Of a stretch of 64,000 nucleotides of DNA, positions 26,595-57,086 are shown piece after piece. The position numbers and the translations under genes were made by a program. Origin of the DNA: an uncultured Gammaproteobacteria bacterium. GTDB taxonomy: Bacteria; Patescibacteriota; Patescibacteriia; S139-126. The stretch lies in the NCBI GenBank assembly GCA_964493305.1, contig CAZBLW010000001.1, forward strand, positions 17,743 through 81,742. Reading direction: 5' to 3'. The first letter of the stretch is position 1; each line of letters opens with the position of its first letter. A model generated the notes under the pieces. That model did no database searches. It saw only the letters and a list, made by a program, of their open reading frames with translations, and was not told the origin of the DNA.

Positions 26595-26640
26595 TGGAGC
26601 GGGTGATCCCGCGTCCGCGGGACGACCTTTTCCTTAAAGG
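26595..26640 (-). pseudogene. partial copy of the tRNA-Gly 3' half (anticodon-loop 3' side to CCA) with the T-arm replaced by a GC hairpin CCCGCG-ga-CGCGGG
   Basis: Minus-strand sense CUUUAAGGAAAAGGUCG-UCCCGCGGACGCGGGA-UCACCCGCUCCA compared with the intact tRNA-Gly CCAAGGAAAAGGUCG-CCGGUUCGAAUCCGG-UCACCCGCUCCA. It lies 11 nt downstream of the intact gene. Confidence 0.7.
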
Positions 26641-26651
26641 TAATAAATAAA

Positions 26652-26728
26652 TGGAGCGGGTGACCGGATTCGAACCGGCGACCTTTTCCTTGGCAAGGAA
26701 ACGTTCTAGCCAACTGAACTACACCCGC
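26652..26728 (-). tRNA. tRNA-Gly (anticodon GCC), CCA encoded
   Basis: GCGGGUG-UA-GUUC-AGUUGGCUA-GAAC-G-UUUCC-UUGCCAA-GGAAA-AGGUC-GCCGG-UUCGAAU-CCGGU-CACCCGC-U-CCA. Confidence 0.9.
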
Positions 26729-26823
26729 CTACGCTGAAGCTCGGCGGGCAGGCCCGCCAAACTATTACTTATTTTGAAAGCTAATTTATTTTAGCAATTA
26801 AAACAAATTAGTCAATAATATTA

Positions 26824-29499: not shown

Positions 29500-29590
29500 G
29501 GCGCCATCGTCCCCGCCTCGCCTTGACGAGCAAGGCGAGTCGAGGCGGGCCAGCCTCGACTAGACTGCGAGGCTAGGCGGGTAGGAGGTT
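29500..29590 (+). repeat. GC-rich nested-hairpin module beginning with a 12-nt copy of the tRNA-Glu 5' end (GGCGCCATCGTC) and ending in AGGAGG
   Basis: Perfect 9-bp stem CTCGCCTTG/CAAGGCGAG and 7-bp stem AGCCTCG/CGAGGCT, strongly GC-rich in an AT-rich window. The 16-nt stretch ttatGGCGCCATCGTC is identical at 29496-29511 and at 29856-29871, the start of the real tRNA-Glu. Confidence 0.7.
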
Positions 29591-29609
29591 AGATAAAATC
29601 TACTTTTTT

Positions 29610-29855
29610 ATGTATACTATTTACTGGTTAATAAATGAACAAAGAAATAAAACCTACATTGGTTTAAGTAAAAATTTTAAACAAAGAATATTGGAACATA
29701 AAAGTAAAAAAGTTAAAACTACGATTAATTTTGGAAATTTTACTTACCACATATTGGAAAAGATAGATGTTATAACTAAAGCACGGCAAAGAGAAAAATA
29801 TTGGAAATCATCTGCCGGTAGAAGAAAATTGAAAAATTTATATAAAAATATTTAG
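29610..29855 (+). CDS. small GIY-YIG nuclease-superfamily protein (YhbQ/UPF0213-like)
   Basis: 81 aa. N-terminal YTIYWL...KTYIGLSKNFKQRILEHK (GIY-YIG ... R ... H) and C-terminal REKYWKSSAGRRKLKNL. It is a paralog of the 54707-54979 protein. Confidence 0.75.
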   Translation: MYTIYWLINEQRNKTYIGLSKNFKQRILEHKSKKVKTTINFGNFTYHILEKIDVITKARQREKYWKSSAGRRKLKNLYKNI

Positions 29856-29859
29856 TTAT

Positions 29860-29934
29860 GGCGCCATCGTCTAGGGGTTAGGACACCAGGTTTTCATCCT
29901 GGTAACCGGGGTTCGATTCCCCGTGGCGCTACCA
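29860..29934 (+). tRNA. tRNA-Glu (anticodon TTC), CCA encoded
   Basis: GGCGCCA-UC-GUCU-AGGGGUUAGGAC-ACCAGG-UUUUCAU-CCUGGU-AACCGGGG-UUCGAUU-CCCCG-UGGCGCU-A-CCA. Confidence 0.85.
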
Positions 29935-29978: not shown

Positions 29979-30121
29979 GCAGGGGAATCGAACGGGCAGG
30001 AATGAGCAACGAAATTTAGTTCGGAAGCGAATGTCGCACAAAGCGAGCGAGCGTAGCTTTGTGCGCTGCCCAGGGCAAGTCCCGCTAATAGCGGGACGCG
30101 GAATTCCCCGTGGCGCTACCA
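29979..30121 (+). repeat. second GC-rich nested-hairpin module ending in a 20-nt copy of the tRNA-Glu 3' end including CCA
   Basis: 10-bp perfect inverted repeat CGCACAAAGC/GCTTTGTGCG (30035-30065) and 7-bp GTCCCGC/GCGGGAC (30079-30097). 30102-30121 (ATTCCCCGTGGCGCTACCA) matches the tRNA-Glu 3' end. The 24-nt motif AGGGGAATCGAAC(C)GGGCAGGAATG is repeated at 29981-30004 and 30176-30198. Confidence 0.7.
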
Positions 30122-30273
30122 AGAGAAAAGGATTTAATTTTGAATTATGTCCTTTTTTCTTTGTCAGATTTTAGAGGGGAATCGAACCGGCAGGAATGCC
30201 CGCAGGCTGGCTTTTGTAAATTTTTTTAATAAAAAACTGCTGGCATTTGTGTCAGCAGTATAAAAGATTATAG

Positions 30274-31439: not shown

Positions 31440-31830
31440 TAGCTAGCGGAAATCGAAATGGTATGAATTATTGACTAATTTTTAACCCTGATATATAAAT
31501 AATACACAAAAAGTTCATTGCATTTTGCCAAAAGCATGGAAAGAGGAAAGTACCACTGACACCATTTCACAGGGAGGGTTTAGCTAGACTGAGACTAAAC
31601 CTGAAACAGGCCAGGCCGGGAAGTTCCCTCTGGAGCTGGATAACTGAAAATTTAGTAGGTTATCACGGGCGTTCCCGTTACAGAACTAACATATTTCTTT
31701 TTGAGTATGTGAAAGCGTTCTGAAAATTTTTTCAGAAAAATTAAGGTGGTACCGCGGATAGCGTTTGGAAAAGCGCTCTTCGTCCTTAAGTCAAATCTTG
31801 GATTTGAGGACAAAGAGCGCTTTTTATTTT
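31440..31830 (+). promoter_or_regulatory. T-box riboswitch leader (stem III, F-box, T-box sequence, terminator)
   Basis: T-box core AAGGTGGTACCGCGG at 31743-31757 against the consensus AGGGUGGNACCGCG. F-box CCGTTA at 31675-31680. Stem III TTCTGAAAA/TTTTCAGAA at 31718-31737. A 14-bp terminator stem GCGCTCTTCGTCCT/AGGACAAAGAGCGC plus T-run at 31773-31830 overlaps the antiterminator 3' side. Confidence 0.7.
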
Positions 31831-52802: not shown

Positions 52803-53687
52803 TTAAATTAATTTTTGCAAATATTTTTTTAACTCAGTTTTGGTTTCTTTGTCTTTAAGACCAAAAGCGATATTGGCTTTCAACCAAGTCAACTTGTTGC
52901 CGGTATCATAGTAGACCCCATCTACAATTTTGGAATAAATTGGGCGTTTTTTACCCAAAGCATCCACGGCATCAACCAACCAGAGTTCATTGCCTTTGCC
53001 CAGTTTAGTTTTTTCCAATATCGGGAAAATATCAGGCGTTAGTACATAGCCACCCAGATTGGCAATCAGCGAGGGGGTATTTTGGGGCCCTGGTTTTTCT
53101 ACTATTTTTTCTACTTGGTAAACAGTTGGTTCTACTTTTATGCCTTTGAGCATGCCGTATTTAGCCGCATCATTACGGGGGACTTGATAGCCAGTAGTTA
53201 CGGGGTCACCGTATTTTTGAAATACCTCAATCAGTTGTAACAGTCTGGGTTTTTTGGGGCAGTCAAATACTTCATCGCCCCAGAGCATGGCAAAAGGTTC
53301 GTTACCAACAATAGGTTTGGCATTTAAAATCGGGGTGCCGTTGCCATAGGGGCCTTTTTGTCGGATATAAATAAAATTGGCTTGGCGGGAAATATTTCTG
53401 ATTTTTTCGTATAAATCTTTTTTAGCAGGATTGTTTTTCAAGGTTTCTTCCAGTTCGGGGGAGCGATCAAAGTGATCTTCACAAGCCCGCTTGGTATAAG
53501 AGGTAACAAAGATAATATCAGTAATTCCCGAGGCGACTGCTTCTTCCACGACGTATTGCAAAATCGGTTTATCCAAAATTGGCAACATCTCTTTGGGGAT
53601 GGCTTTGGTGGCTGGTAAAAATCTAGTACCCAAGCCGGCTACTGGGATCACTACTTTTCTGATCGGATGAGTAAATTTTTTGGTCAT
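52803..53687 (-). CDS. galU: UTP--glucose-1-phosphate uridylyltransferase
   Basis: VIPVAGLGTRFLPATKAIPKEMLPILDKP N-terminal signature. Confidence 0.9.
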   Translation of the reverse strand: MTKKFTHPIRKVVIPVAGLGTRFLPATKAIPKEMLPILDKPILQYVVEEAVASGITDIIFVTSYTKRACEDHFDRSPELEETLKNNPAKKDLYEKIRNISRQANFIYIRQKGPYGNGTPILNAKPIVGNEPFAMLWGDEVFDCPKKPRLLQLIEVFQKYGDPVTTGYQVPRNDAAKYGMLKGIKVEPTVYQVEKIVEKPGPQNTPSLIANLGGYVLTPDIFPILEKTKLGKGNELWLVDAVDALGKKRPIYSKIVDGVYYDTGNKLTWLKANIAFGLKDKETKTELKKYLQKLI

Positions 53688-53742
53688 GAATAAACAATTA
53701 GTTTAATTTATTATAACAAAAAACAACACTTTTATCCAAATT

Positions 53743-53764
53743 AACCCCGCCAGCTGGCGGGGTT
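53743..53764. terminator. palindromic GC hairpin AACCCCGCCAG/CTGGCGGGGTT, bidirectional terminator
   Basis: 11-bp perfect palindrome between galU (minus) and the SDR gene (minus). Confidence 0.5.
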
Positions 53765-53829
53765 AATTAATTTACTCTGTTTTAATTTTTACTTATGCAG
53801 AAAATTCGCGGAAATTTAAGAAAAATATT

Positions 53830-54570
53830 TTAACGCAAAGTCCAACCACCATCCACCACAATAGTTTGGCCAGTGATATAGCTAGCTTGGGGGGAAGCTA
53901 AAAATATAACCGCTCCAGCAATATCTTCTGGTTGACCCATGCGTGCCAGAGGAATCATCGCCACGGTTTGTTTGATAGTTTCTTCTGAAGAGGAGCTACT
54001 AGCACCCGGAGTTGAGATAGCACCTGGAGCTACGTTGTTTACAGTAATATTTTTATCAGCCACTTCCAAGGCCAAGGCTCGGATCATAGCATTGAGTGCT
54101 CCTTTGGTAGCACAGTAATGGGTAAGCCCTGCAAAACCTACCACACTGGCAATCGATGAGATGTTGATAATCCGACCACCTTTGGGCATAACTGGTAAAA
54201 CCATTTGGCTGGTAAAATAAACACTTTTGAGATTGACATTCATCACTTTGTCCCAATCACTCTCGGTCATATTGGCAAAAGGGACAAACGGGAAAATGCC
54301 AGCGTTGTTTACCAAGACGTCAACTTGTTTAAATTTTTTTACGGTTAAATTAATCATAGCTTTGACCTCAGTTTTTTTGGAGACATCACATTTAACTGCC
54401 AATGCATCTCCTCCTATTTTTTTGATTTCTTTGACTACTTGTTGGCAGGCTACTAAATCTAGGTCAGCCACTACCACGTTGTATTTATTTTTAGCCAGCA
54501 TTAGAGCAATGCCTTTGCCAATGCCTTGTTTGGCACCGGTGACAATTGCATTTTTTTTATTGGTGGGCAT
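53830..54570 (-). CDS. short-chain dehydrogenase/reductase (FabG-like 3-oxoacyl-ACP reductase family)
   Basis: [12 protein letters not shown] Rossmann motif, NNAG, catalytic S...YxxxK. Confidence 0.85.
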
Positions 54571-54610
54571 AAATTTTTTGGTTAATAATTAATATTTTGA
54601 ATAAATTTAT

Positions 54611-54700
54611 TGGCGGAGGCGGAAGGATTCGAACCTTCGATACCCGTTAAGGTATACCGCATTTCGAGTGCGGCCCATTCAACCACTCTGGCACGCCTCC
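54611..54700 (-). tRNA. tRNA-Ser (anticodon CGA), class II, CCA encoded
   Basis: GGAGGCG-UG-CCAG-AGUGGUUGAAUGG-...-CCGCA-CUCGAAA-UGCGG-UAUACCUUAACGGGUAUC-GAAGG-UUCGAAU-CCUUC-CGCCUCC-G-CCA. Confidence 0.9.
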
Positions 54701-54706
54701 TTAGTA

Positions 54707-54979
54707 CTAACTTTTTTTAATGATATCTTTATATTGTAATCGTAACAACCGGTTACCTTCTGTGGTTTTTAAATATTTTTCTCTTCTTAAAGCATCACTT
54801 TTTAATAAATAAGCTTCATAACCAATTATTTTAAATGGTCGATAGTTTTTAGTAGATTTTACCTGACCAGATTGGTGTTGCTTTAATCTAATTTTTAAGT
54901 CAGTACATGAACCTTTATAAATATCTTTGTTTGATAATAATAAAAAATAGACGTAGTGCATAGATATTATTAAAATCAT
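54707..54979 (-). CDS. small GIY-YIG nuclease-superfamily protein (YhbQ/UPF0213-like), paralog of 29610-29855
   Basis: 90 aa with YVYFLLLSNKDIYKGSCTDLKIRLKQHQ (GIY-YIG..R..H) and REKYLKTTEGNRLLRLQ. Lies 6 nt upstream of tRNA-Ser on the same strand. Confidence 0.75.
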   Translation of the reverse strand: MILIISMHYVYFLLLSNKDIYKGSCTDLKIRLKQHQSGQVKSTKNYRPFKIIGYEAYLLKSDALRREKYLKTTEGNRLLRLQYKDIIKKS

Positions 54980-54981
54980 TT

Positions 54982-55057
54982 CGTCACGTCATGCGACGTG
55001 ACGCCCCGTCGAATGATGGGGCGAGTGCGGCGCCTTCAACCACTCAGCCACCTCTCC
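54982..55057 (-). repeat. GC-rich hairpin module plus degenerate 36-nt copy of the tRNA-Ser 5' half
   Basis: 9-bp perfect hairpin CGTCACGTC-atgc-GACGTGACG (54982-55003) and CGCCCC/GGGGCG (55002-55023). 55022-55057 matches tRNA-Ser positions 1-36 (acceptor, D-arm, anticodon 5' side) at 30/36 identities. Confidence 0.7.
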
Positions 55058-55251
55058 GGATTAGTATTATGAATTACGAATTAAGAATTAAGAATTAAGG
55101 TTTATTAATTATAAATCATTAGTAATTTATATTATATCTTTAAAATAATATTAAGACAAAGATTGACAAAATGCCAAAAAAATGCTAATATTGTTGGTCA
55201 TTTAGTTTTTTAAAAAATATTTTTTTATTCACCAAACAAAAGGAGATAAAA

Positions 55252-55728
55252 ATGTTCGAGAAATCTATTTTTGAAAAATTACCTCTCAGGGTAGTAGTAT
55301 TTGAAGACACGCCAGCTGAGCAAGTAGCCGCTGGCAAAGCATTGGAAGCCGTTGGCTTAAAATGTGAAATTGTTGATCACTTTGAAACAGATGCTATCAG
55401 TGATGATAGCTCAGTAGTCGGAGTACTAACCGATGTATTTTTAACCGCTGAGCCTGAAGGTTTTGGGATTGCAGCTCATTGTGCCAAGTACAATATCCCG
55501 TGTTGTGTTGTTACACAACAAGTCAATCATAATTTTTCTCCCTGGCAAAGAGCGGTGTTGGAAGTATGGGATATGATAAATATCCAAATTTTTGTATCAT
55601 CTACTTCTCCCAAAAATTGGGAAAGCGCAGCACTATATTTAGCGGAAAAAATTCATAACGAGTTATTAAAATCATCCACACCACTGGGTAAAAGTTATCA
55701 AAGATATTTTTATCACCTCACTCAATAA
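55252..55728 (+). CDS. hypothetical protein
   Basis: 158 aa with an AAAAGGAG RBS. Followed by a hairpin and T-run terminator (55734-55766). Confidence 0.45.
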   Translation: MFEKSIFEKLPLRVVVFEDTPAEQVAAGKALEAVGLKCEIVDHFETDAISDDSSVVGVLTDVFLTAEPEGFGIAAHCAKYNIPCCVVTQQVNHNFSPWQRAVLEVWDMINIQIFVSSTSPKNWESAALYLAEKIHNELLKSSTPLGKSYQRYFYHLTQ

Positions 55729-55821
55729 AAAATAAAGGACTCTAATTATAGGGTCCTTTTTTTTTATATTAATTGAATTTAAATCCACCCAGTGTCATAC
55801 TAAAAATATAATCAAAAATAT

Positions 55822-56217
55822 ATGAACTCTTACAATTGGTATCAAACTCTTATCAAACCAGCCTGGGCACCGCCGTCTTATTTGTTTGGTCCCGTCTGGA
55901 CGGCACTCTATACTATTATCGCCATCTCTTTTGGCACGGTGTTTTACAAAATTTTCACCAAACAATTACCCCTGACTCTGGCTTGGCCGTTTGCTTTGAA
56001 TTTAGTTTTCAACTTTGCTTTCACTCCCTTGCAGTTTGGTTTGAAAAACAATCTGCTGGCGGCAATAGATATTGTATTAGTGTTAGCTACCTTGGTCTGG
56101 GCACTAGTGGCGATTTATCCGCATCTCAAATGGGTAACTTGGGTCAATATTCCTTATTTACTCTGGGTGTGTTTTGCGACGGTTTTACAACTTACTATCA
56201 CTTATTTAAATAAGTAG
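55822..56217 (+). CDS. tspO: TspO/MBR-family tryptophan-rich membrane protein
   Basis: WYQTLIKPAWAPPSYLFGPVWTALY N-terminal signature. 131 aa, about 4-5 TM helices. Confidence 0.75.
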   Translation: MNSYNWYQTLIKPAWAPPSYLFGPVWTALYTIIAISFGTVFYKIFTKQLPLTLAWPFALNLVFNFAFTPLQFGLKNNLLAAIDIVLVLATLVWALVAIYPHLKWVTWVNIPYLLWVCFATVLQLTITYLNK

Positions 56218-56270
56218 CTTACTTATATATAAGGAGTATAATTAAGCTATAAGTATTAAAATTAATAAAT

Positions 56271-56528
56271 ATGAAATTCAAAAAAAATGAAGGTACAATT
56301 GACCGAATTATTCGCGTAGTAGTGGGACTAGCGCTTATTGCTTTGGGTATGCAATATGGTACGACTTGGATGTGGATTTTGGGATTGGTGGTACTAGCCA
56401 CCGGAGCAATTGGTTGGTGTGGAATATATCAGGTACTTGGTATTTCCACCTGCAAAGTAAAACCTGCTGAAGTCAAAGATCAAACACCGCCCACTGAACC
56501 ACCTACCAACACCCCACCAGTGATGTAA
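56271..56528 (+). CDS. DUF2892 (YgaP-like) small membrane protein
   Basis: DRIIRVVVGLALIALG ... LVVLATGAIGWCGIY pattern. Followed by a terminator (56550-56576). Confidence 0.55.
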   Translation: MKFKKNEGTIDRIIRVVVGLALIALGMQYGTTWMWILGLVVLATGAIGWCGIYQVLGISTCKVKPAEVKDQTPPTEPPTNTPPVM

Positions 56529-56639
56529 AATTATTTTTCGACAAACAAAAACTACGGTTGACGCCGTAGTTTTTTTGTGCTAATTTATTCTATTCTTTCT
56601 TTAATAATAAATATTCATTCATAAAAAAAGAGGTGTCTC

Positions 56640-57086
56640 ATGCAATTTATAGATTTAACTCTGAAAGAAGTCATGGTTCCGTACTATGAAGTAAAAGGTA
56701 TACCAATGCTTATTACTTCCATAATTGTGTTTATTGGACTTATCGCCGCAATGGCGTTTCTACCTGGACCCAAGGTCGGTCCTACTCCTCCAACTTTAAT
56801 TCATATTTTTTGGTCTTTATTTACATTTATTTTTTTAATCGCCATAATTTTTTGGGCTCTGTATCTATGGATACGAAGTTTTTGGTGGCGAAAGGTACAA
56901 AAAAATTTAGATCAGGAACAATATGTTTTAGCCAAAGAGTATGGCCTGATTGCTAAATCTGAAGCAACAAAAAAAATACTGCAAGATTTTCCTGATATTG
57001 AACAACAAACAGAAAATGTTGGCTTAGTGCTCATTCTCTACAAAGGAAAATATTTACTCTACCAAAAAGTTTGGGGGATAAAATGA
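56640..57086 (+). CDS. hypothetical membrane protein (2 TM helices)
   Basis: 148 aa. Its end overlaps the cupin gene start. Confidence 0.4.
   Translation: MQFIDLTLKEVMVPYYEVKGIPMLITSIIVFIGLIAAMAFLPGPKVGPTPPTLIHIFWSLFTFIFLIAIIFWALYLWIRSFWWRKVQKNLDQEQYVLAKEYGLIAKSEATKKILQDFPDIEQQTENVGLVLILYKGKYLLYQKVWGIK

What the first reader, a model, noticed from the sequence alone, without database searches (positions are those of the whole stretch)
54611..55100. Second instance of the same architecture: tRNA-Ser, a paralogous GIY-YIG gene, GC hairpins and a degenerate copy of the tRNA 5' half
Read on the minus strand the order is: a 36-nt degenerate copy of tRNA-Ser positions 1-36 (55022-55057, 30/36 identical, ending in the anticodon loop), then GC-rich perfect hairpins (CGTCACGTC/GACGTGACG and CGCCCC/GGGGCG), then a 90-aa GIY-YIG ORF, then 6 nt later the intact tRNA-Ser(CGA). 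This is the same order as the tRNA-Glu locus, and the two GIY-YIG proteins are clear paralogs (shared C-terminal REKYxKxxxGxRxLKxLYK). Recurrence at two unrelated tRNA genes on opposite strands argues that this is a system and not a one-off accident. An AT-rich heptamer array (GAATTAA x3) directly abuts the copy at 55066-55100.
Basis: partly seen in the sequence, partly recalled or inferred. Interest (0 to 1): 0.8.

Follow-up and report, generated by a model that had tools for sequence, protein, structure and literature searches.

The report
tRNA-gene-targeting GIY-YIG selfish mini-element
This is one copy of a widespread, apparently undescribed selfish DNA element of ultra-small (CPR/Patescibacteria) bacteria: a tiny nuclease gene plus a conserved double hairpin that lands inside a tRNA gene, pushes aside part of the resident tRNA and brings a complete replacement tRNA with it.

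Summary
On the minus strand the order is native tRNA-Ser promoter and flank, first 36 nt of a tRNA-Ser(CGA), two GC hairpins, an 84-aa GIY-YIG gene, 6 nt, and an intact tRNA-Ser(CGA).

The 36-nt piece is not a decayed duplicate. It is 36/36 identical to the only tRNA-Ser(CGA) of element-free relatives, and homology to their locus stops exactly at the hairpins. The intact tRNA is a different allele, 90/90 identical to that of another relative.

The hairpins are a conserved 38-bp module (CG-hairpin-CG-hairpin-CG). I found 101 unique copies, mostly in T-loops (TTCG^A) or CG-containing anticodon loops of tRNA copies, with strong stem covariation. A filled-versus-empty comparison shows a 2-bp CG duplication.

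Of 124 related ORFs, 87 directly abut a same-strand tRNA. ORF-less derivatives and tandem arrays are common. The ORF is under purifying selection (dN/dS about 0.1).

Best reading: a free-standing, homing-endonuclease-like element whose tRNA-derived arms let it invade cognate tRNA genes without destroying them. Nuclease activity, the repair route and the hairpin's role are inferred. Phage T4 SegB is the closest precedent. I found no description of this architecture in the searchable literature.

The parts
55131..55159 (-). Promoter-like site (TTGTCT-17-TATAAT) of the resident tRNA-Ser gene. It now lies upstream of fragment, module, ORF and tRNA.
   Evidence: Consensus scan. The same sequence lies upstream of the intact tRNA-Ser in element-free L162 and in L163. 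Use as the promoter of the whole unit is inferred.
55022..55057 (-). Displaced 5' part (nt 1-36, ending in the anticodon C34-G35... CTCG) of the resident tRNA-Ser(CGA), allele 1.
   Evidence: 30/36 identical to the neighbouring tRNA. 36/36 identical to the sole tRNA-Ser(CGA) of element-free relatives L162 and L159. Collinearity with the L162 locus runs from 55290 to exactly 55022. 36/36 conserved in L163.
54984..55021 (-). Double-hairpin module M. H1 is 55004-55021, the central CG is 55002-55003, and H2 is 54984-55001.
   Evidence: It belongs to a family of 101 unique copies with the form CG-18 nt-CG-18 nt-CG. Stems covary: 97.8% paired, 12/14 pairs with double changes, 0/500 shuffles.
54977..54983 (-). 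Duplicated CG (54982-54983) plus a 5-nt stub AAATG (nt 37-41) of the resident tRNA.
   Evidence: The empty site in L162 reads CACTCGAAATGCGG. The window reads CACTCG-[M]-CGAAATG and then unrelated sequence.
54962..54976 (-). AT-rich spacer between the stub and the start codon.
   Evidence: Sequence. The stub+spacer segment 54962-54983 is 19/22 conserved in L163.
54707..54961 (-). GIY-YIG nuclease gene, 84 aa, catalytic domain only (Slx1/UPF0213 branch).
   Evidence: Pfam PF01541 E=3.5e-12. Invariant Y5, Y15, G17, R25, H29, E49. AF2 pLDDT 95. Best structural matches are UPF0213, Slx1 and the I-TevI catalytic domain. dN/dS 0.10 against L163.
54701..54706 (-). Short tRNA leader (TACTAA) between the stop codon and the tRNA. 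It repeats the leader found in front of the displaced fragment.
   Evidence: Window ...ATACTAATCC|GGAGAGG compared with ...TAGTACTAA|GGAGGCG. L163 has TACTAATCC in both places.
54611..54700 (-). Intact tRNA-Ser(CGA), allele 2, the functional gene that accompanies the ORF.
   Evidence: ARAGORN and Rfam. 90/90 identical to the only tRNA-Ser(CGA) of the element-free relative L161, and different from allele 1 in the acceptor stem, D stem and variable arm.

Best explanation
The segment 54611-55057 is a copy of a tRNA-gene-targeted selfish mini-element built around a free-standing GIY-YIG nuclease gene.

**Proposed mechanism**
1. The nuclease makes a 2-nt staggered double-strand cut at a CG inside a loop-coding part of a tRNA gene. 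Here that is the anticodon loop, CTCG^A. In most relatives it is the T-loop, GGTTCG^A.
2. The break is repaired by copying from an element-bearing chromosome. In that donor the nuclease gene lies between two tRNA-derived segments that act as portable homology arms.
3. The recipient keeps its own tRNA sequence up to the cut. This is the displaced fragment, still behind the native promoter.
4. The recipient gains the 38-bp double-hairpin module M, which sits exactly at the cut with CG duplicated, then a short stub, the nuclease gene and a complete tRNA from the donor.
5. tRNA function is never lost, and the ORF and the new tRNA ride on the tRNA promoter.
6. M splits the target site in the displaced arm, so the arm is not re-cut or recombined away.
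7. Internal deletion of the ORF produces non-autonomous, MITE-like copies.

**Shown:** the anatomy, recurrence at many tRNAs, filled and empty sites, the allele swap, the CG duplication, hairpin covariation, ORF-less derivatives and purifying selection.

**Inferred:** nuclease activity and cut site, the repair route, co-transcription and the role of M.
For: **tRNA association.** Of 124 family ORFs in 164 loci, 66 lie just upstream of a same-strand tRNA and 21 just downstream. Most of the rest are inner copies of tandem arrays, at contig ends, or 70-200 nt from a same-strand tRNA; a few have no tRNA detected nearby.

**Partial copies.** The far side of the ORF carries a partial copy of that same tRNA ending at M. 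Several copies are 100% identical to the intact tRNA, e.g. 72/72 and 69/69.

**Module M.** There are 101 unique copies. 81 have the exact form CG-H-CG-H-CG, 66 lie in T-loops, and the others are mainly in anticodon loops that contain CG (Ser-CGA, Arg-NCG).

**Filled versus empty site.** L162, L159, L160 and L165 carry allele 1 without an ORF. L161 carries allele 2 without an ORF. The window carries allele-1 nt 1-36, then M with a CG duplication, then the ORF, then full allele 2. A simple insertion would have produced a chimeric tRNA. The fully converted 3' part fits break repair with co-conversion.

**Derivatives.** ORF-less forms arise by internal deletion (L138) and tandem arrays occur.

**Selection.** GIY dN/dS is 0.10, and its dS of 0.69 is comparable to 1.0 in the neighbouring SDR gene. 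The fragment is 36/36 and M 36/38 conserved between the window and L163.

**Protein.** It has a GIY-YIG fold with the catalytic residues.

**Precedent.** T4 SegB is a GIY-YIG homing enzyme that recognises the tRNA T-arm motif GGTTCRANTCC and leaves 2-nt 3' overhangs (PMC2330249).
Against: - No cleavage has been measured.
- The intact tRNA next to the ORF keeps the same CACTCGAAATG target, so there is no sequence immunity. Tandem arrays suggest repeated hits.
- The protein is only a catalytic domain and lacks the DNA-binding domain that gives I-TevI/Seg enzymes their specificity. Its nearest structural relatives include the structure-specific nuclease Slx1. It falls below the cutoff of the group I intron endonuclease model.
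- Long-term purifying selection in a copy that looks vertically inherited is not what a purely selfish, fixed homing gene predicts.
- The nearest-neighbour ORF shares tRNA isotype in only 45/87 cases. Elements therefore often change tRNA species, which needs illegitimate events that the model does not explain.
- M is far more conserved than mere site disruption requires.
Confidence: 0.6

Rival explanations
1. M-centred 'cut-and-ligate' transposon. The Slx1-like nuclease is structure-specific. It cuts at CG next to or within extruded hairpins: the module's own hairpins, and the arm-and-loop hairpins that tRNA genes can form. The 38-bp module with CG sticky ends is the real mobile unit, re-ligated by host ligase. 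The tRNA duplication and the ORF position arise secondarily, because only cells that keep an intact tRNA copy survive.
For: - CG flanks and separates both hairpins, and CG is duplicated at the target.
- M's consensus is reverse-complement symmetric, like a pair of terminal inverted repeats.
- Stems covary with no excess of G.T over A.C mismatches, so the signal is DNA-level or strand-neutral.
- Single hairpins are also inserted alone in old fragments (L065, L109).
- Insertion sites are concentrated in the T-, anticodon- and D-loops.
- Structural neighbours are Slx1 and UPF0213.
- One M copy lies in a non-tRNA context (L083).
Against: - M is not dispersed. There is one copy in the 64-kb window, and copies are almost always inside a tRNA copy beside an intact tRNA.
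- No otherwise complete tRNA carrying M as its only lesion was seen, apart from decayed L100.
- The allele swap of the whole 3' part of the tRNA points to recombinational repair.
- Hydrolytic excision plus ligation has no known precedent as a transposition route.
Confidence: 0.2
2. Host-beneficial or domesticated module. The small GIY-YIG protein and the fragment+hairpin transcript serve tRNA-locus biology, for example repair or gene conversion of tRNA genes, pre-tRNA processing or decoy functions, or transcription control. The association with tRNAs would then reflect function rather than mobility.
For: - dN/dS is 0.10 over a divergence similar to a housekeeping neighbour.
- The displaced fragment and M are conserved far above the neutral level between the window and L163.
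- The ORF is forced into the same transcription unit as the tRNA, with 6 nt between them.
- H2 followed by a T-rich tail scores as terminator-like.
Against: - Presence and absence vary among close relatives at the same locus.
- Pseudogenised and internally deleted ORFs exist (L100, L138).
- There are tandem arrays, many different tRNA isotypes and two mirror configurations.
- Family members occur in MAGs labelled as other phyla as well as Patescibacteria, e.g. Omnitrophica, Kiritimatiellae, Victivallales and Cloacimonadota.
- M lies upstream of the ORF in one configuration and downstream in the other, which argues against a fixed mRNA-level role.
Confidence: 0.12
3. Coincidence or an ordinary relic: a tandem tRNA-Ser duplication that decayed, next to an unrelated ORF, or the scar of an integrase-type island or of a group I intron.
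For: tRNA fragments are common scars of integrative elements. Group I introns do occur in Patescibacteria tRNA genes (PMC13011429).
Against: - The same layout recurs in more than 100 loci.
- The fragment ends exactly at a conserved module.
- No integrase gene lies in or next to the ~450-bp unit in the ORF list of 53000-57000, and there is no intron or other Rfam match in the window.
- The unit is only about 450 bp.
- The fragment is the 5' part of the tRNA, not the 3' part used by integrases.
Confidence: 0.03

Closest known systems
Phage T4 SegB (free-standing GIY-YIG homing endonuclease in the tRNA gene cluster)
   Same: It is a GIY-YIG enzyme encoded between tRNA genes, outside any intron. 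It recognises the conserved tRNA T-arm motif GGTTCRANTCC, leaves 2-nt 3' overhangs, cuts many tRNA genes including one of its own genome, and drives inheritance of itself together with neighbouring tRNA genes (PMC2330249).
   Different: - SegB is a phage protein. By analogy with I-TevI/Seg enzymes (my own knowledge, not checked here) it has a DNA-binding part in addition to the catalytic domain.
- SegB cuts towards the CCA end rather than inside the T-loop.
- It has no hairpin module, no displaced tRNA fragment and no ORF-less derivatives.
- The window protein has no phage homologue at E<=1e-3.
Mobile endonuclease ORFs of fungal mitochondria that create hybrid genes, and double-hairpin elements (Allomyces, Glomus)
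   Same: An endonuclease ORF arrives together with a replacement piece of the target gene, and the resident piece is left behind as a remnant. Short GC-rich double-hairpin elements are mobile in the same AT-rich genomes. Sources: PMC3787672, which cites Paquin et al. 2000 and Beaudet et al. 2013, and Paquin et al. 1994 from my own knowledge.
   Different: The targets there are mitochondrial protein genes. The hairpin elements are dispersed rather than fixed at the cut site. No tRNA targeting or CG duplication has been described. There is no sequence relationship.
Slx1 / UPF0213 (COG2827, YhbQ-like) small GIY-YIG proteins
   Same: These are the best sequence and structure matches: 1ZG2 E=2e-11, 1YWL, and the Slx1 nuclease domain at rmsd 2.2-2.5 A. 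They share the single-domain size.
   Different: Bacterial UPF0213 proteins have no established function or genomic habit. Slx1 works with Slx4 on branched DNA. None is known to be mobile or linked to tRNA genes.
tRNA-gene-targeting genomic islands and prophages (tyrosine integrases)
   Same: They use a tRNA gene as the landing site and carry a tRNA segment that restores the gene, leaving a direct repeat of tRNA sequence.
   Different: - They are kilobases long with an integrase, and they duplicate the 3' part.
- Here the unit is about 450 bp with no recombinase.
- Either the 5' or the 3' part is duplicated.
- The whole tRNA can be replaced by another allele.
REP/REPIN elements with RAYT transposases; MITEs
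   Same: They have short GC-rich palindromic doublets in inverted orientation, with non-autonomous copies depending on one protein gene.
   Different: REPINs are dispersed in intergenic DNA and use a Y1 HUH transposase. M copies sit in tRNA copies and the associated protein is a GIY-YIG hydrolase.

Membership tests
GIY-YIG nuclease superfamily (PF01541) | Profile match above the curated threshold | tested here: met
   46.9 bits against a 22.6 cutoff for the Ser-locus protein, and 47.0 for the Glu-locus protein.
GIY-YIG nuclease superfamily (PF01541) | Conserved catalytic residues (Tyr of GIY, Tyr of YIG, Arg, His/Tyr, Glu) | tested here: met
   Y5, Y15, G17, R25, H29 and E49 are invariant in 23 sequences. 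The metal-binding Asn was not assigned.
GIY-YIG nuclease superfamily (PF01541) | GIY-YIG alpha/beta fold | tested here: met
   AF2 model pLDDT 95.3. Foldseek top hits are UPF0213 (1ZG2, 1YWL), Slx1 (7CQ3, 6SEH) and the I-TevI catalytic domain 1LN0.
Free-standing homing endonuclease gene (intronless homing, T4 Seg type) | Gene lies outside an intron or intein, next to its presumed target gene | tested here: met
   The ORF is 6 nt from the tRNA. No intron model matches.
Free-standing homing endonuclease gene (intronless homing, T4 Seg type) | Presence/absence polymorphism at the same locus in close relatives | tested here: met
   L159, L160, L161, L162 and L165 lack it. The window, L163 and L164 have it.
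Free-standing homing endonuclease gene (intronless homing, T4 Seg type) | Co-conversion of flanking markers with the endonuclease gene | tested here: met
   The tRNA 3' of the cut is entirely allele 2, while the displaced 5' piece is allele 1. That this arose by co-conversion is an inference.
Free-standing homing endonuclease gene (intronless homing, T4 Seg type) | Protein cleaves the ORF-less allele site-specifically | not testable with these tools
   Only indirect evidence: the 2-bp CG duplication and the constant position of M.
Free-standing homing endonuclease gene (intronless homing, T4 Seg type) | Catalytic domain joined to a separate DNA-binding domain (I-TevI/Seg architecture; NCBIfam TIGR01453) | tested here: not met
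   The protein is 84 aa and consists of the catalytic domain only. TIGR01453 scores 18.3 bits against a 56 cutoff.
UPF0213 / COG2827 / Slx1-like branch | Closest sequence and structure relatives are in this branch; single-domain size of about 85-110 aa | tested here: met
   1ZG2 E=2e-11 and 1YWL E=1.7e-9. Foldseek ranks 1-5.
Integrase-type tRNA-targeting island | Tyrosine or serine recombinase gene within the element | tested here: not met
   The unit is about 450 bp with a single 84-aa ORF.
Group I intron in a tRNA gene | Intron ribozyme between two tRNA exons | tested here: not met
   No group I intron match at the gathering threshold or at E<=1. No 3' exon follows the fragment.
REP/REPIN-RAYT or MITE | Many dispersed copies per genome; Y1 transposase partner | tested here: not met
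   One M copy in 64 kb. Copies are confined to tRNA copies. The partner protein is GIY-YIG.

The most novel reading that the evidence does not exclude
This would be a new class of minimal mobile element. An Slx1/UPF0213-type GIY-YIG hydrolase and a 38-bp dyad-symmetric double hairpin together insert at CG dinucleotides in the loop-coding parts of tRNA genes. The nuclease may recognise DNA structure (hairpins or a cloverleaf formed by the displaced strand of a transcribed tRNA gene) rather than sequence. The element always rebuilds the tRNA from a carried copy, and it has its own non-autonomous derivatives. If so, the long-orphan bacterial UPF0213 family would gain its first function, and the mechanism would be neither classical homing nor any known transposase chemistry.
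Probability: 0.25. Interest if true: 0.9.

Novelty: new variant of a known kind. Interest (0 to 1): 0.75.

Why it matters
- **Unexplained annotation features.** It would explain why 'GIY-YIG nuclease family protein' genes sit beside tRNAs, and why tRNA pseudo-fragments, GC-rich hairpins and contig breaks cluster at tRNA genes in Patescibacteria/CPR assemblies.
- **A compact selfish strategy.** It shows how a selfish gene can colonise essential, single-copy genes in streamlined genomes without killing the host. It also moves tRNA alleles between lineages.
- **An orphan family becomes testable.** It gives a concrete, testable activity to a protein family with solved structures but no known role.
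- **A possible tool.** It offers a very small nuclease with a defined, conserved target.

Tried and rejected
- **Rfam.** Searches at gathering and at E<=1 found no family for the hairpin module or the fragment. A sub-threshold aspS-motif hit on the Glu-locus module (29.1 against 42.5 bits) was not reproduced in 16 other loci, so I treat it as weak or chance.
- **Long-hairpin fold.** An alternative fold pairing H1 with H2 has no covariation.
- **RNA-specific selection.** G.T (7) is not in excess over A.C (10) mismatches.
- **Phage or defence origin.** There was no tblastn hit in 50,697 phage records and no PHROG or PADLOC family.
- **Literature.** Eight of the 10 allowed literature searches were run. 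Those aimed at GIY-YIG plus tRNA genes, Patescibacteria, fragments, UPF0213/COG2827 and adjacency terms found no description of this architecture. Non-indexed journals cannot be excluded.
- **Loop variant versus target.** By eye I saw no link between M loop variants (ATTC/ATCC) and the target sequence. This was not quantified.
- **Group I intron, split or permuted tRNA.** Rejected, because an intact tRNA is present and the fragment belongs to another allele.
Full report
**1. What is in the window**

The window is AT-rich (35% GC). The homologues of its genes come mainly from Patescibacteria/CPR metagenome-assembled genomes.

Read on the minus strand, the locus has this order:
- a promoter-like TTGTCT-17-TATAAT (55159-55131);
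- an AT-rich flank with a heptamer array (55066-55099);
- 36 nt that match nt 1-36 of tRNA-Ser at 30/36 (55057-55022);
- hairpin H1 (55021-55004), CG, hairpin H2 (55001-54984);
- CG plus AAATG (54983-54977);
- a 15-nt spacer;
- a GIY-YIG ORF (54961-54707, 84 aa from the start codon that homologues use);
- 6 nt;
- tRNA-Ser(CGA) (54700-54611).

The second GIY-YIG gene of the window, at the tRNA-Glu locus, is 33% identical to this one (E=2e-11).

**2. The association with tRNA genes is general**

A protein search found 195 small stand-alone homologues, of which the 120 listed are 62-146 aa. A scan of one genome per species returned 80 loci.

In these loci, plus those fetched later, I found 124 family ORFs. 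Of these, 66 end within a few bases of the 5' end of a same-strand tRNA, often overlapping it. Another 21 start 0-20 nt after the 3' end of a same-strand tRNA. Most of the remaining 35 are inner members of tandem arrays, lie at contig ends, or sit 70-200 nt from a same-strand tRNA; a few have no tRNA detected nearby. The tRNAs include Ser, Arg, Lys, Asn, Gln, Glu, Thr, Gly, Leu, Ile, Pro, Tyr and Met.

On the side of the ORF away from the intact tRNA there is nearly always a partial copy of that same tRNA. Several copies are 100% identical to the intact gene (72/72, 69/69, 56/56, 36/36), so those events are recent.

**3. The 'GC hairpins' are a conserved module at a defined site**

The junction sequences share a 38-bp module M:

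CC-NN-GTC-ATYC-GAC-NN-GG, CG, CC-NN-GTC-GRAT-GAC-NN-GG

M is flanked by CG on both sides, and its consensus is its own reverse complement.
- I collected 101 unique copies. Of these, 81 have the exact form CG-H-CG-H-CG.
- 66 sit in a T-loop with both flanks recognisable (GGTTCG-M-CGAATCC).
- The rest are mostly in anticodon loops that contain CG (Ser-CGA as here, Arg-CCG/TCG/GCG).

After M the tRNA sequence continues for only a short stub.

Two mirror configurations exist:
- **A:** [tRNA 5' part][M][stub][spacer][ORF][intact tRNA]. The window has this form.
- **B:** [intact tRNA][ORF][spacer][stub][M][tRNA 3' part].

The stems covary strongly: 97.8% of cells are paired, 12 of 14 pairs show changes on both sides, and 0 of 500 shuffles reach this. 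A fold pairing H1 with H2 has no support. G.T mismatches are not favoured over A.C, so nothing points specifically to an RNA role.

**4. M also occurs without the ORF, but not without a tRNA**

I scanned metagenome contigs with the M pattern alone. This gave 78 loci and 82 copies:
- 26 have the ORF within 150 nt;
- 16 are too close to a contig end to tell;
- 40 have no ORF.

The ORF-less copies still lie inside a partial tRNA copy, 10-60 nt from the intact tRNA, in both configurations. L138 shows a tandem pair in which the second unit has an internal ORF deletion (ATGCACTAT|CGCGAC...). The ORF-less forms are therefore deletion derivatives.

Tandem arrays of two to four units occur in L012, L039, L065 and L109. 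Other GC-rich palindromic modules, and single hairpins, are found inside older fragments.

**5. Filled versus empty site: the decisive test for this locus**

I used the neighbouring SDR gene to find relatives. The same locus turned up in three states.
- **L162, L159, L160 and L165** have one tRNA-Ser(CGA), allele 1 (GGAGAGG...), and no GIY-YIG gene.
- **L161** has one tRNA-Ser(CGA), allele 2 (GGAGGCG...), and no GIY-YIG gene.
- **The window, L163 and L164** have the element.

The comparisons give four results:
- Window 55290 to 55022 is collinear with the L162 flank plus tRNA nt 1-36 (89% over 270 nt), and homology stops exactly at the M boundary.
- The 36-nt piece is 36/36 identical to allele 1.
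- The intact tRNA of the window is 90/90 identical to allele 2 of L161.
- The empty site reads CACTCGAAATG, whereas the window reads CACTCG-M-CGAAATG. M insertion therefore goes with a 2-bp CG duplication.

So the '30/36 copy' is the displaced 5' part of the resident gene, still on its native promoter, and the functional tRNA came in with the ORF. A plain insertion at position 36 would have produced a chimeric tRNA with a mismatched acceptor stem. The fully allele-2 3' part fits recombinational repair with co-conversion.

**6. The protein**

It matches Pfam GIY-YIG. Y5, Y15, G17, R25, H29 and E49 are invariant. The AF2 model has pLDDT 95.

The nearest solved structures are the orphan UPF0213 proteins BH0048 and EF2693, then the Slx1 nuclease domain (rmsd 2.2-2.5 A), then the I-TevI catalytic domain. 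It has no extra DNA-binding domain and falls below the cutoff of the group I intron endonuclease model. It has no phage, PHROG or PADLOC relatives. An exhaustive search finds 3,367 clusters at E<=0.001 and 229 at E<=1e-10.

Between the window and L163 the ORF has dN 0.07 and dS 0.69, a ratio of 0.10. The neighbouring SDR gene has dS 1.0. The gene is therefore old at this locus and kept by selection. Over the same divergence the fragment is 36/36 and M 36/38 conserved, far above neutral expectation.

**7. Mechanism**

I commit to a homing-type model at confidence 0.6. It has three steps:
1. The nuclease makes a 2-nt staggered cut at a CG in the T-loop or anticodon loop of a tRNA gene.
2. The break is repaired from an element-bearing donor, whose two tRNA-derived segments serve as homology arms that work in any genome carrying the cognate tRNA.
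3. M fills the cut site of the displaced arm and protects it.

The tRNA promoter would then drive the fragment, M, the ORF and the new tRNA.

The best precedent is T4 SegB. It is a GIY-YIG homing enzyme that recognises GGTTCRANTCC in tRNA genes and leaves 2-nt 3' overhangs (PMC2330249). Fungal mitochondrial endonuclease ORFs that create hybrid genes, together with the mobile double-hairpin elements of the same genomes, are a second analogy (PMC3787672).

Several points remain open:
- how the intact tRNA escapes re-cutting, since its site is unchanged;
- how a catalytic domain alone finds its target;
- how elements change tRNA species, given that the nearest ORF shares isotype in only 45 of 87 cases;
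- why M is so strongly conserved.

These gaps keep alive a rival in which a structure-specific, Slx1-like nuclease moves M by cut-and-ligate (0.2), and a host-function rival (0.12).

**8. The tRNA-Glu locus and other scars**

The Glu locus has the same order, but with a different and larger module inserted in the D-loop after C12. That module shows no CG duplication and is followed by a stub (TAGGAGGTTAGA). Relatives of its protein sit at tRNA-Glu genes in configuration A, configuration B and in tandem, with the same CCCGCCTCG...CGAGGCGGG module. The phenomenon therefore comprises at least two protein subfamilies with their own modules.

**9. Novelty**

The searchable literature links GIY-YIG genes to tRNA genes only through SegB and mitochondrial intron ORFs. 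I found no description of this architecture. I rate it a new variant of a known kind (free-standing GIY-YIG homing elements), with features that could define a new class if the biochemistry is unusual.

Noticed in passing
window 29500-29934 (+): The tRNA-Glu locus follows the same logic with different parts. A 12-nt 5' copy (29500-29511) is followed by a ~70-nt module CCCGCCTCG...GGCGGG (29512-29581) inserted in the D-loop, then a stub TAGGAGGTTAGA (29582-29593), an 81-aa GIY-YIG ORF (29610-29855) and the intact tRNA-Glu. There is no CG duplication. Relatives L169-L172 show configurations A, B and tandem units at tRNA-Glu genes.
   Followed up: partly
window 29979-30121 (+) and 30173-30211; L162:2255-2445: A ~125-nt GC-rich non-coding element lies between tRNA-Glu and a perfect 19-nt copy of its 3' end (30103-30121). 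It begins with an inverted copy of the T arm (GGGGAATCGAAC). It is about 70% identical to an element downstream of tRNA-Ser in relative L162, so it is a third kind of tRNA-associated insert. A partial further copy follows at 30173-30211. It has no Rfam match.
   Followed up: partly
window 26595-26635 (-) and 26743-26758 (-): tRNA-Gly(GCC) (26652-26728) is followed, after 16 nt, by an ORF-less copy of its own 3' part in which the T arm is replaced by the hairpin TCCCGCGGACGCGGGA. Another hairpin, GGCGGGCCTGCCCGCC, lies 14 nt upstream of the tRNA. So 3 of the 7 tRNA genes in the window carry such scars.
   Followed up: no
window 55066-55099: The heptamer array (period 7, 4.9 copies) is part of the native tRNA-Ser upstream flank. 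Similar AT-rich heptamers precede the tRNA in element-free L162 and L161, and L163 has a single unit. It is a variable microsatellite, not part of the element.
   Followed up: yes
window 54720-54748 (-): A promoter-like TTGTTA-17-TATCAT lies inside the last codons of the GIY-YIG ORF, ending 20 nt before the tRNA. This stretch is almost unchanged in L163 (TTGTTA-17-TATTAT). The conserved C-terminal coding sequence might double as a promoter for the downstream tRNA.
   Followed up: no
window 54977-54979 (-): The ATG that gives the 90-aa reading of the ORF is the ATG of the tRNA stub CGAAATG, in frame by chance. Homologues start at the next ATG (54961).
   Followed up: yes
window 29507-29578 (-): The Glu-locus module gives a sub-threshold match to Rfam aspS RNA (RF02930, 29.1 against 42.5 bits), sharing two hairpins and a GUCUA loop. 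The match was not reproduced in 16 related loci.
   Followed up: partly
L083:1000-1060; L100:7440-7955: These are rare exceptions. L083 has an M copy in a coding-like, non-tRNA context. L100 has a full-length dead tRNA-Ser(TGA) with M in its T-loop, followed by a pseudogenised ORF and no intact tRNA beside it.
   Followed up: no
L004, L011, L044, L041, L066 and others (contig ends): Many public contigs end within a few bases of the GIY-YIG ORF or the module. This suggests that these repeated units break metagenome assemblies at tRNA genes.
   Followed up: no
L159:2100-2500, L165:1270-1670: In two element-free relatives the tRNA-Ser gene and its upstream region are inverted relative to the SDR gene, so this intergenic region is rearrangement-prone.
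   Followed up: no
window 31528-31790 (+): An ordinary T-box leader (Rfam 110 bits), unrelated to the finding.
   Followed up: no
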